A DNA stretch of 64,000 nucleotides from the human T2T-CHM13v2.0 reference genome, Homo sapiens. The notes below the pieces were generated by a model. That model was not told the origin of the DNA and did no database searches. It worked only from the letters and a program-made list of their open reading frames with translations. Location: NCBI RefSeq assembly GCF_009914755.1, contig NC_060929.1; one strand, 5' to 3'. Below are positions 47,401-50,400 of this stretch, piece by piece; positions within the stretch are counted from its first letter, which is position 1, and the number at the start of each line of letters is the position of its first letter. A program made the position numbers and the translations under genes.

Positions 47401-50400
47401 CTTTCAAAACCACGTTGTGTTTACTTCCTTTCTTACATAAAGAGTAAAACAAAACAACCAAAATACCAAGCAAACAAAAAAACCAAAAAGCAAAAACCAA
47501 TTTACAACACACACACACACACACACACACACGCTCGCGCACACACACACACAGAGTCTAGATGACTTATGGTTTTAATATATGTTTCAGACTCGATCTT
47601 AAGAAAAGGTATTTCATACGATGAAAAAATCAGTAAAATGTAATGAAATGTAAATTGGAAATTATTTTTTTCATTTTTGTTTTTTTCCTTAAGTAAGGTG
47701 TAAGCATTCAGTGGACAATCTTGAAAACAACTAAAGAAACAGAAACAGTGATGATAAACCAATGCTGTGGGAATCTGTAGAAACTTTGTTAGCTTAGCTG
47801 ACAGTTTCTACTCTCAACTAAATGTTTAAAGAATGATTTACACTATCCATCTGCAAATTGATAGTGACTATTCTTTATATTCTTTCTAACTATTCATTTT
47901 TAAATCTTATGTAAACATTTGAAATTAAGTATAATTTTTAAGGGTTTATTTTGTTCTTCTTTTTCTATCCCCTATGGGTAAAAATAGTACATAGTAAAAA
48001 AAGTACATAAGGAAGTACAAATCATGAGGTAGAAAATTTCAGAAATTATTGGTTCTTTTCAAATAGAGGAAATTAGTTCAAATATATATTAAAATGTTTT
48101 AATTTGACTAGTAATTGGTGCATACTTGTATTATCTCATTTGTGTGTGAACAAGAATGAGCAAATTACATTTGAGTGTTCAGAAACATTTAGTTAAATAA
48201 AATTTAGATACTGTATTTTATCAAAAACTCCCTCTTAATTTTGCAAATTTTTAACAAAACTTGAGTGAAAGAATAAATGAATGATAGCAAGCATGATTAC
48301 AATAAATCACATCACAATATTGCAATGAAAATAGTTAACAGTTTATTGTGATAACAGTTTATAATTTCCTCTCAATGTCAAATCCAAGTTCAAATTCTCT
48401 ATATTTCAACTCAATATAGACAAAAGTTGCCCTGATACTAAAAAACTTGTGGTGCTTTCAAATAACATGCTGGTTAAAAATATTCTATTTAGTTTTCCTC
48501 AAATCACAAACAATGTCATTATGCCAGTTTATTTCAGAAAAATTTTGGTGTATGTGGTATATAACCCTATATTTATAAATGGTGCATTTGACTTTAAAAA
48601 TGAAGCTCTAGGGCTCTACATTTGACATGTGCTTTCAAGGCTGTTTGAAAATGAAATACACTGTGGATTTGGAAAAGTGTTTTGGTTTCCTGATGCCAAG
48701 TTGTATTTAAGTAATTTTTGGCAGAATTAAAAGGTGCAATGATATGGCTTCTTCAGTATGTTCCTGTGCAAATGATATAGGTATAGATTTCTCTAGTTAC
48801 ACAGTTTTGTTTTTTCTAACTCAAAGAACAACTGGCTTTAGATCTGAGACTAAAGGTTTTTATTTTTTTTTAAATCTAATTAAAGCTACTAAGTAATTAT
48901 AAGCAGGGCTGAATGAAATTTGTTCAGCTGCTGTGGTTTGTGAGCCTGTACAGTGCTTGGCAGGCACAGGCGCCTTGGAGGAGGCCTGGAAAGGAATGTC
49001 TTGAATGGGTCTTGACAAGCTTGCTGGCCATGGGGTCATCTTCCATAAGTGGGAACTGCCGAACCTCTTGCTAGCATTTGTCAATAGCAAAGAATCCAGG
49101 GTGCAGAGTTCCCATAAAACGCACATTACTAGCTCTTGGGAAAAAAGGAAGCCTTTCTTTAGCTTTATTTTTCCCTTGCCATTCTAAGTTTCTCACAGTA
49201 TTAGTGAGATTTTAGCAAATGGTGCCCTGCCTCCTTTTTCCCCTTCCCACACTTCTTTCTGTGTTGACAGGGTAGAAACTGAAAGGTTTGTCGTGTATTT
49301 TGGGTAAGTGTACAAAATAATACCTTGTTTTTGGTGATTCAGTATTTTGTTTTGCAAGTGATTGTTTTTGGACGAGACTGCTGTTCTGCATGATTACAGG
49401 TCTTGGGAAATTTTGCTTGTCCACCTGGCCATGCATGCTTTGTGTGCAGTTTCATTTTCTAATGATAAGGGGAGCTTACACAAAGTTGTTTATTTATTTT
49501 TGGTCCTAAGAGTTTTGCACTGTGAATGCATTTAAAGTATTTTGAAATTTGAGAATTAGTGTAATGACATTTAGACGAACTTAAAATTTTTAACTTTCCT
49601 TGTAGGTCCACATAACCTCAAGAACAATTACTGTGCTGTACTTCTGAAATTTTTACCCAATGTCTTTTATGAATCTTGTAGCTTGTTTAACAGAGAATTA
49701 GCAATCAATTATCTGAACGGTTCCATTGGTTTTCTGAGAGCATCTAAGCAATTTATTGCTTATATCTCAGAGCCGTATACAGAACTTTTCAGAATTTGCA
49801 TTTCACTTAAGGGTAGCATATTTTAAGAAAGTTTAAAAATAAATTTGTTTAATGTTCAGAATGGATTTTTATATTTTGCATTCTGATCCAGTTTTTTCTT
49901 TCCTAGCTTATGTGGATATAAGAAATTTTAATTAATGAGGATATTGATATAAATGATGGACAAATTTGGTATGAAAATTATGACTGTTTTAACAATATAA
50001 AATAACTCTCCTATTATTTAGACTATTCTGTGGCCACTAGCATGCTAAGTATTATCAGATTTCTAAAAACTAGGGAAGGATGACAATTCAGATTCTCTGT
50101 TAAATAGGAAGTGAGCTTTTTTTCTACATATTTCTACATATGAATTGTGGTTTCATTGTGATTTGAAGTCTGAGCATGAATATATTTTTGGTTCAATAGG
50201 ACGTGACATTTCGCAAGGTTTAGAGCAGCTTGCAGGATTGATAATTCTTAAGAGCCTGCTGGCTTTTAAACTCTCAGAACATTGCAGTCCAAGTCCCTTT
50301 GATCATTCTAATTATGCTTTGAACGTTAAAACCAGAAATTTAAAAAACATGTTGTTTTAATATGTTCTTTTGGAGATACGTAGGAATTGGTATAACATGT

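What the first reader, a model, noticed from the sequence alone, without database searches (positions are those of the whole stretch)
49225..49440. Candidate RBFOX-regulated 33-nt microexon in ADGRV1 intron 11
Seen in sequence: in non-repeat-looking DNA there is a ~40-nt pyrimidine tract ending in ttgacag (49270), 33 nt of putative exon, and a consensus donor TGG|gtaagt (49304). Between exon 11 (phase 2) and exon 12 it keeps frame with no stop, changing ..LSLDR-VNV.. to ..[19 protein letters not shown].. (+11 aa). Two TGCATG hexamers lie 84 and 129 nt downstream (49387, 49432). Established: UGCAUG downstream of a cassette exon is the RBFOX inclusion-activating position in neurons and muscle. 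Inference: a tissue-specific insert just after the Ca-binding segment of a Calx-beta repeat. Its ETERFVVYF also echoes the repeat's own E-x-x-E-x-F-x-V strand.
Basis: partly seen in the sequence, partly recalled or inferred. Interest (0 to 1): 0.8.

Follow-up and report, generated by a model that had tools for sequence, protein, structure and literature searches.

The report
Ancient 33-base alternative ADGRV1 exon
A 33-base stretch inside an intron of the deafness-blindness gene ADGRV1 is a real, very old alternative exon that adds 11 amino acids to one calcium-binding repeat; what switches it on is still unproven.

Summary
On human sequence alone the case is only suggestive: random sequence of the same composition gives about 0.12 such in-frame, open candidates per 34.7 kb of intron.

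Orthologues settle the question. Of 147 vertebrate ADGRV1 protein models fetched, 142 span this exon junction, and 55 of those carry an 11-residue insert exactly there. In 34 of the 55 the insert is identical to the human reading, [11 protein letters not shown]. Carriers range from a macaque through rodents, a marsupial, birds, a turtle, a gecko, frogs and a lungfish to eels and many teleosts. The insert is more conserved than the flanking exons.

So this is a genuine, ancient, alternative coding microexon that automated annotations of other species already contain. I found no paper describing it.

It lies in the F-G loop of a Calx-beta repeat, the position where sodium-calcium exchanger cassette exons act.

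RBFOX control rests only on two downstream TGCATG motifs. It is plausible (about 0.55) but untested.

The parts
46160..46383 (+). Upstream constitutive exon (exon 11 of NM_032119.4). It ends ..CTAGACAG in phase 2 and encodes Calx-beta strands up to ..ETVTLSLD(R).
   Evidence: Hub annotation. Pfam Calx-beta profile positions 47-95 of 119.
49216..49270 (+). Acceptor region: a 53-nt AG-free zone (49216-49268), a tract that is 88% pyrimidine (49225-49265), and ttgacAG.
   Evidence: Acceptor score 8.51, reached by 5 of 19 annotated exons (recalled matrix).
49271..49303 (+). The 33-nt alternative coding microexon (T2T chr5:91127271-91127303). It lies +2888 to +2920 into the intron and encodes [10 protein letters not shown] plus the first two bases of the G codon.
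   Evidence: The same insert occurs in 55 of 142 junction-spanning orthologue models, 34 of them identical to human.
49304..49312 (+). Donor site TGG|gtaagtgta.
   Evidence: Donor score 8.38, reached by 5 of 19 annotated exons.
49387..49392 (+). TGCATG, candidate RBFOX site, 84 nt downstream of the exon.
   Evidence: Function inferred, not tested.
49432..49437 (+). TGCATG, candidate RBFOX site, 129 nt downstream of the exon.
   Evidence: Function inferred, not tested.
51071..51197 (+). Downstream constitutive exon (exon 12). Its first base completes the split codon. It encodes VNVENQ..., the rest of the F-G loop, and strand G ending ENDD.
   Evidence: Hub annotation. Models.

Best explanation
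Window 49271-49303 is a genuine, evolutionarily ancient, alternatively used coding exon of ADGRV1. When it is spliced between exons 11 and 12 it keeps the frame and inserts [11 protein letters not shown] at the end of strand F, in the F-G loop, of one Calx-beta repeat. By my reading of P0001 this is the sixth DD...NDD unit from the N-terminus.

Shown here: the human exon, its splice sites and its frame are intact. The same peptide sits at the same junction in orthologues from teleosts to a macaque, under stronger constraint than the neighbouring exons. Both forms exist among gene models.

Inferred:
- At 33 nt the exon is too short for efficient exon definition, so it needs a downstream enhancer. 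The two UGCAUG motifs at +84 and +129 most likely recruit RBFOX proteins (my odds about 0.55). Inclusion would then be favoured in RBFOX-expressing cells and skipping in photoreceptors, hair cells and glia.
- At the protein level the insert lengthens strand F and enlarges the F-G loop. By analogy with the cassette exons of the sodium-calcium exchanger this would change inter-repeat geometry or rigidity, or create a binding surface. It would not add a new domain.
For: Sequence and frame.

Orthologues. Three protein searches gave 147 ADGRV1 models.
- A length test and a motif test together find 55 with the 11-residue insert and 85 without.
- Two more have odd inserts (P0104, P0127), 4 end or deviate at the junction, and 1 does not cover it.
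- The 55 come from 46 named species. These include Macaca nemestrina isoform X6, Marmota monax X1 (6,317 aa), Trichechus, Macrotis, Struthio, Corvus, Carettochelys, Sphaerodactylus, Mantella, Protopterus and Anguilla, plus many teleosts with VETARF[VI]V[YF]FG (names as given).
- The motif occurs once per protein.
- All 54 inserts defined by length alone fit V.T.RF.V.[FI][GR], so the invariance is not produced by the search pattern.

Constraint. Mean pairwise identity is 0.91 for the insert, 0.73 for the 74 aa before it and 0.76 for the 42 aa after it. The insert window ranks 9th of 117.

Other support.
- In an alignment of 70 full-length orthologues this is the only conserved 11-residue all-or-none indel: 31 present, 38 absent.
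- Both forms occur in one species: Astyanax P0038 carries it, P0025 and P0026 do not.

Position in the fold.
- Pfam Calx-beta matches up to profile position 98 of 119 at the start of the insert.
- A profile search of solved structures puts the insert opposite the F-G loop of NCX1 CBD1.
- In the AlphaFold models strand F is residues 100-106 without the insert and 100-111 with it.
- Foldseek top hits are NCX1 CBD1 and CBD2, CALX and integrin beta4 Calx-beta.

Precedent: NCX and CALX cassette exons lie in the F-G loop of CBD2 (PMC9820601 passages).

RBFOX.
- The position rule, and the enrichment of such motifs downstream of neural microexons, are in PMC10987577 (passages).
Against: I saw no human transcript evidence.
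- The retina long-read study had an average of 818 reads over exons 3-77. Its main text names only exon 39A as a new in-frame ADGRV1 exon.
- Its Supplemental Table S1 of minor events is a PDF that I could not read.

85 of 142 models lack the exon. These include platypus, three marsupials, six bats, rabbit, aye-aye, two caecilians, gar and catshark. The queries carried the insert, so insert-bearing models are over-represented among the 120 listed of 366 hits.

Gene models are predictions, and some are built by homology.

RBFOX.
- No CLIP or perturbation data turned up.
- Motif conservation could not be tested, because no vertebrate genome other than this one is held.
- RBFOX is reported as low in photoreceptors and hair cells.

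Structure. Residues 115-124 of the insert-bearing model have pLDDT below 50. The alignment has only 18 rows.
Confidence: 0.85

Rival explanations
1. The exon is real and conserved, but RBFOX is not its main regulator. The two TGCATG motifs are fortuitous or minor. Inclusion would instead be set by relief of PTBP1 repression at the long pyrimidine tract, by NOVA, CELF or TIA-type sites, or simply by splice-site strength.
For: The acceptor has a 53-nt AG-free zone, longer than at 17 of 19 annotated acceptors. It also has CUUCUUUCU-type pyrimidine motifs and U-rich runs just downstream of the donor. TGCATG pairs are not rare across the window: 2 observed, and 7 of 100 shuffles reach 2. ADGRV1's main cell types express little RBFOX.
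Against: Only 0.51% of window positions have two or more TGCATG in the next 200 nt, and none of the 19 constitutive exons has one there. Downstream RBFOX motifs are a described feature of neural microexons.
Confidence: 0.4
2. It is an SRRM3/SRRM4-dependent sensory or neural microexon, like those of photoreceptors and hair cells.
For: ADGRV1 acts in photoreceptors and hair cells, where SRRM3/4 drive microexons. A second 33-nt ADGRV1 exon, probably exon 39A, has a UGC at -9 and is included in about half of retina reads.
Against: The nearest UGC upstream of this acceptor is at -43. The exon is 33 nt. As I recall, this class has a UGC close to the acceptor and is mostly 3-27 nt long. The main text of the retina study does not report this exon.
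Confidence: 0.1
3. It is a chance pseudoexon that is never spliced in.
For: Random sequence of the same composition yields 0.12 in-frame, open, equally strong candidates per 34.7 kb. The 605-kb gene should therefore hold a few by chance. I saw no human transcript evidence.
Against: Identical or near-identical 11 residues sit at the same junction in 55 models from 46 named species, down to teleosts. They show lineage-specific conservative changes and no stop.
Confidence: 0.02
4. It is an annotation artefact: a conserved non-coding intronic element that gene predictors read as an exon, spread between species by homology-based annotation.
For: Many models are automatic. Homology-built bird models lack it while RefSeq bird models have it, which shows dependence on the pipeline.
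Against: Each genome must itself encode the peptide with usable splice sites. The variants (VETARF.., VETKRF....VYIG..VFFG) are conservative and never break the frame. RefSeq lists numbered isoforms with it (X1, X2, X3, X4, X6 and others).
Confidence: 0.04

Closest known systems
ADGRV1 'exon 39A', a 33-bp in-frame exon reported in human retina long reads (PMC12047242; section 8 read)
   Same: It is in the same gene, is also 33 nt, in frame and absent from the reference transcript. I located a matching human exon at G000:C5:91195790-91195822 encoding EKTQLIHYRLK. It too falls right after an ..ExFLVNLT..PPRL strand F of a Calx-beta repeat. It is present in only some orthologue models: 10 of 70 in the alignment window.
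   Different: It lies in a different repeat and encodes an unrelated peptide. It has a UGC at -9 and no TGCATG within 300 nt downstream, only one GCATG at +213. Its retina inclusion is reported as about half of reads, whereas the main text reports nothing for the intron 11 exon.
Cassette exons C-F of NCX1/NCX3 and the five-residue CALX1.1/1.2 variant in the F-G loop of the Calx-beta domain CBD2 (PMC9820601, passages)
   Same: These are alternative exons that insert residues into the F-G loop of a Calx-beta fold within a tandem of such domains. The profile alignment puts the ADGRV1 insert opposite the CBD1 F-G loop, and the fold matches NCX CBD1 and CBD2.
   Different: NCX domains are cytosolic regulators of a transporter, with measured effects on Ca2+ affinity and interdomain dynamics. 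The ADGRV1 repeat is extracellular and no effect has been measured. The NCX segments are longer and largely unstructured, while the first half of this insert is predicted to extend a strand.
RBFOX-enhanced neural microexons with UGCAUG in the downstream intron (PMC10987577, passages)
   Same: This is a short, frame-preserving, deeply conserved exon with two UGCAUG within 130 nt downstream.
   Different: RBFOX binding and response are untested. The host gene is expressed mainly in cells said to have little RBFOX.

Membership tests
Alternative coding cassette microexon | Short exon (51 nt or less) bounded by AG and GT that preserves the reading frame | tested here: met
   33 nt, AG at 49269-70, GT at 49304-5, phase 2 in and out, no stop.
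Alternative coding cassette microexon | Present in mature transcripts | tested here: inconclusive
   It is in 55 of 142 junction-spanning orthologue protein models, but these are predictions. No human read data are available here, and the retina study's main text is silent.
Alternative coding cassette microexon | Both inclusion and skipping forms exist | tested here: met
   85 models lack it and 55 have it. Astyanax has both (P0038 against P0025 and P0026). The human selected transcript lacks it while the genomic exon is intact.
Alternative coding cassette microexon | Conserved as coding sequence | tested here: met
   The insert shows 0.91 mean pairwise identity against 0.73 and 0.76 for the flanks. 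34 of 55 are identical to human, and none has a stop or frameshift. Nucleotide-level constraint was not testable.
RBFOX-activated exon | (U)GCAUG in the downstream intron within about 300 nt | tested here: met
   TGCATG at +84 and +129.
RBFOX-activated exon | Motifs conserved across species | not testable with these tools
   No vertebrate genome other than the window's own is held.
RBFOX-activated exon | RBFOX binding (CLIP) and change of inclusion on RBFOX loss or gain | not testable with these tools
   Full-text searches for Gpr98 or Adgrv1 with Rbfox found no such data. Supplementary target tables were not searched.
SRRM3/4-dependent microexon | UGC motif close upstream of the acceptor; length mostly 3-27 nt (features recalled from memory) | tested here: not met
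   Nearest upstream UGC is at -43; length is 33 nt.
Calx-beta domain (PF03160) | Match to the Pfam profile | tested here: inconclusive
   The single 160-aa segment gives E 2.8e-5 and 24.5 bits, below the 27-bit cut-off. The whole proteins carry precomputed PF03160.
Calx-beta domain (PF03160) | Calx-beta beta-sandwich fold | tested here: met
   Foldseek: NCX1 CBD1 3gin (E 5.9e-8, TM 0.79 on target), CBD2 2qvm, CALX CBD1 and integrin beta4 Calx-beta. The models have mean pLDDT 77.5 and 79.6.
F-G-loop splice insert of Calx-beta domains (NCX/CALX type) | Alternative residues located in the F-G loop | tested here: met
   The insert aligns to the CBD1 F-G loop. It lies between strand F (100-111) and strand G (133-139) of the model.
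F-G-loop splice insert of Calx-beta domains (NCX/CALX type) | Modulates Ca2+ binding or interdomain dynamics | not testable with these tools
   Needs biophysics. Only single-repeat models were made.

The most novel reading that the evidence does not exclude
The 11-residue insert is a cell-type switch, conserved across bony vertebrates, that separates two functional forms of ADGRV1. A skipped form would serve photoreceptors, hair cells and glia. An RBFOX-dependent included form would serve other neural cells, where the lengthened strand F and enlarged F-G loop create a specific binding surface or alter the Ca2+-dependent stiffness of the Calx-beta chain. Variants in this unscreened exon or its TGCATG enhancers could then explain some unsolved ADGRV1-linked epilepsy or Usher 2C cases.
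Probability: 0.12. Interest if true: 0.7.

Novelty: already known. Interest (0 to 1): 0.4.

Why it matters
ADGRV1 causes Usher syndrome type 2C and is linked to epilepsy. Diagnostic pipelines score variants against the selected 90-exon transcript, which lacks this exon. Its 33 bases, splice sites and possible enhancer motifs are therefore treated as deep intron.

An exon kept almost unchanged from teleosts to primates is very likely functional. It deserves to be added to variant interpretation and to isoform-aware expression studies. The 2025 retina study did exactly that for the comparable exon 39A.

For protein function, two conserved micro-inserts in the F-G loops of different Calx-beta repeats point to a recurring way of tuning this very long adhesion chain.

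The existence of the exon is not new to annotation databases. What is missing in print, as far as my searches reach, is its description, tissue pattern, regulator and effect.

Tried and rejected
- Nucleotide conservation of the exon and the TGCATG motifs: not possible, because no vertebrate genome other than the window's own is held. Protein models were used instead.
- Human isoform check: I could not see the other 15 human RefSeq transcripts or GENCODE.
- RNA structure around the exon: no signal (z = +0.53; 132 of 200 shuffles fold at least as well).
- Rfam over the whole intron: 0 matches.
- Tandem repeats: nothing relevant.
- Recursive splicing: rejected from the sequence, because the acceptor is followed by GGTAGA and the join with exon 11 does not rebuild a donor. 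My recollection that recursive splicing is a feature of very long introns (this one is 4.7 kb) adds to that.
- Duplication of the end of exon 11 as the origin of the insert: only a loose E-x-hydrophobic pattern is shared, so I did not pursue it.
- Literature: ten full-text searches and the follow-up passage reads found no description of this exon. The searches were Adgrv1 or Gpr98 with microexon, Rbfox, alternative exon or cassette exon, Vlgr1 with splice variant, and Rbfox with hair cells, plus two on Calx-beta and NCX splicing. The reads were.
- Retina paper supplement: the only readable file (Table S3) lists USH2A cryptic exons only. Table S1 is an unreadable PDF.
It was repeated after 23 other calls, as the tool instructed.
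Full report
OBSERVATION

- The stretch 49225-49265 is 88% pyrimidine and ends in ttgacAG at 49270.
- Thirty-three bases follow at 49271-49303, then TGG|gtaagt at 49304.
- TGCATG occurs at 49387 and 49432, which is 84 and 129 nt past the exon.
- The 19 annotated exons in the window join into an open frame in only one register: 0 stops, against 98 and 129 in the other two.
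- That register puts the host intron (46384-51070, 4,687 nt) in phase 2.
- The insert then reads ..[19 protein letters not shown].. without a stop.
- The region matches only itself in the genome and holds no tandem repeat.

IS HUMAN SEQUENCE ALONE CONVINCING?

Only partly. I scored splice sites with weight matrices recalled from memory, used for ranking only.
- The acceptor scores 8.51 and the donor 8.38. Only 5 of 19 annotated exons reach each value.
- It is the only 3-51 nt pseudoexon in 34,742 intronic bases with both scores that high. Seven reach the median of real sites.
- First-order Markov resamples of the introns give 0.695 such pairs on average and 0.12 that are also in frame and open. 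A gene of this size should hold a few by chance.
- TGCATG occurs 17 times in the window, against 14-21 expected.
- Only 0.51% of positions have two copies in the next 200 nt, and none of the 19 constitutive exons has one there.
- Across the window such pairs are not rare: 2 observed against 0.44 expected, and 7 of 100 shuffles reach 2. It is the co-location with the exon that is unusual.

DECISIVE EVIDENCE: ORTHOLOGUES

The protein database holds vertebrate gene models.
- A search with the translated exon 11 returned 15 proteins. Two of them carry [11 protein letters not shown] exactly between ..LSL(D/N)R and the exon 12 sequence: black rhinoceros P0004 and the gecko Sphaerodactylus P0007.
- Two further searches brought the total to 147 proteins.
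- I classified them by the distance between two conserved anchors and, independently, by a motif.
- The result: 55 carry the 11-residue insert, 85 do not, 2 have odd inserts (P0104, P0127), 4 end or deviate at the junction, and 1 does not cover it.

The 55 come from 46 named species plus one unnamed record, with names as the sources give them.
- Primate: Macaca nemestrina isoform X6.
- Rodents: six, including Marmota monax X1 at 6,317 aa.
- Other mammals: manatee, sengi and bilby.
- Birds: ostrich, quail, pheasant, crows and others.
- Reptiles: a turtle and a gecko.
- Amphibians: three frogs.
- Fishes: an African lungfish, two eels and many teleosts.

Conservation of the insert:
- Thirty-four inserts are identical to the human reading.
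- The others differ conservatively, for example VETARF[VI]V[YF]FG in teleosts, VETKRF.. in manatee and ..VYIG in Mantella.
- None breaks the frame, and the motif occurs once per protein.
- All 54 inserts found by length alone fit the motif, so the invariance is not an effect of the pattern.
- Mean pairwise identity is 0.91 for the insert, 0.73 for the preceding 74 residues and 0.76 for the following 42.
- In an alignment of 70 full-length orthologues it is the only conserved 11-residue all-or-none indel: 31 present, 38 absent.

From general knowledge, not from a call: ray-finned and lobe-finned lineages split more than 400 million years ago. Intronic DNA does not keep an open 11-codon reading that long by chance.

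Caveats:
- These are predicted models.
- The queries carried the insert, so insert-bearing models are favoured among the 120 listed of 366 hits. The 55:85 ratio says nothing about usage.
- Absence from a model is not absence from a genome. Models lacking it include platypus, bats, rabbit, caecilians, gar and catshark.

ALTERNATIVE USE

Both forms exist. Astyanax has P0038 with the insert and P0025 and P0026 without it. The human selected transcript lacks the exon although the genomic copy is intact.

WHERE IT SITS IN THE PROTEIN

- Exon 11 matches Calx-beta profile positions 47-95 of 119. The insert-bearing segment matches up to position 98, at the first insert residues.
- A profile of 18 insert-bearing segments finds NCX1 CBD1 as the nearest solved relative (2fws, 2dpk; E about 2e-5). 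It aligns the insert opposite the CBD1 F-G loop.
- The AlphaFold model without the insert has mean pLDDT 79.6. Strand F is residues 100-106, the loop has block-mean pLDDT 80-87 (residues 101-130), and strand G is 122-128.
- The model with the insert has mean pLDDT 77.5. Strand F runs 100-111, through LSLDRVET. Residues 115-124 fall below pLDDT 50, and strand G is 133-139.
- Foldseek confirms the fold: NCX1 CBD1 and CBD2, CALX and integrin beta4 Calx-beta.
- So the exon lengthens strand F and enlarges the F-G loop. It does not add a new element elsewhere.

PRECEDENT

In NCX1, NCX3 and Drosophila CALX the cassette exons lie in the F-G loop of CBD2. That loop is next to the interdomain linker and the Ca2+ sites of the preceding domain, and the exons tune Ca2+ affinity and interdomain rigidity (PMC9820601, passages read). 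The ADGRV1 insert works like these in position only. No effect has been measured, and the repeat is extracellular.

REGULATION

- UGCAUG downstream of an exon is the RBFOX-activating position, and such motifs are enriched downstream of neural microexons (PMC10987577, passages).
- Two copies within 130 nt of a now-validated alternative exon make RBFOX the best single candidate. I put it at about 0.55.
- The same review states that photoreceptors, hair cells and olfactory neurons express little NOVA or RBFOX. The model therefore predicts skipping in the classical ADGRV1 tissues.
- That fits the reference isoform. It also fits a retina long-read study that covered exons 3-77 at an average of 818 reads and names only exon 39A as a new in-frame exon (PMC12047242, section 8 read). 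Its table of minor events is an unreadable PDF.
- Alternatives remain. The acceptor has a 53-nt AG-free zone and PTBP-like pyrimidine motifs.
- An SRRM3/4 signature is not evident. The nearest UGC is at -43 and the exon is 33 nt long (the signature itself is recalled from memory).
- There is no RNA structure signal and no Rfam family in the intron.

A SECOND MICRO-INSERT, OUTSIDE THE WINDOW

- The orthologue alignment shows another optional insert near residue 2952: EMTELIHYRLK in turtle and VTELIRYRLK in birds.
- The human counterpart is a 33-nt exon at G000:C5:91195790-91195822. It reads ttttag|AAAAG...GAAAG|gtaaaa and encodes EKTQLIHYRLK.
- It is very probably the published exon 39A.
- It also follows strand F of a Calx-beta repeat.
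- It has a UGC at -9 and no TGCATG within 300 nt downstream.
- The two microexons thus look similar in protein logic but different in regulatory signature.

KNOWN OR NEW?

The exon is already in many automated annotations, including a macaque isoform, so its existence is not new. I could not see the other 15 human RefSeq transcripts. Ten full-text searches and the follow-up reads found no paper describing it. The 2026 ADGRV1 review speaks only generally of extracellular-domain variants (passages).

VERDICT

The exon is real, ancient and alternative (0.85 or higher). Its placement in the F-G loop is well supported. RBFOX control is plausible but unproven. Interest is moderate, mainly for Usher and epilepsy variant interpretation and for isoform-aware work on ADGRV1.

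Noticed in passing
L004 2071-2103 (G000:C5:91195790-91195822; outside the window): A second 33-nt in-frame ADGRV1 microexon encoding EKTQLIHYRLK, inserted after ..FPPRL of another Calx-beta repeat. It is probably the 'exon 39A' reported in human retina. It has a UGC at -9 of the acceptor and no TGCATG within 300 nt downstream. Orthologue models of a turtle, birds and some teleosts carry related inserts.
   Followed up: partly
window 28999-29193, 32121-32278, 44145-44379, 55254-55484: Longer pseudoexons (91-235 nt) whose splice-site scores are as strong as or stronger than the microexon's. All carry stops in the host frame. Several overlap repeat-masked stretches and translate like Alu-derived sequence (my impression). 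They are possible sites of disease-causing pseudoexon activation.
   Followed up: no
window 12298-12334: The only other pair of TGCATG motifs 20-50 nt apart in the window. It lies in the first intron, with no candidate exon examined next to it.
   Followed up: no
P0104 (Aldrovandia affinis) and P0127 (Mola mola), at the same junction: Odd inserts at the microexon position (CRVFFCW, 7 aa; one extra residue). They look like mis-predicted or shifted versions of the exon in those models.
   Followed up: no
P0013, P0020, P0021, P0023 (gecko, owl, tuatara, Komodo dragon models): Truncated models that run from an exon end (..LSLDR or ..PPRL) into what looks like intron read-through. They end exactly at the two junctions that host the microexons.
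   Followed up: no
window 46384-51070 against PMC10987577: A review states that photoreceptors and hair cells have little RBFOX.
   Followed up: partly
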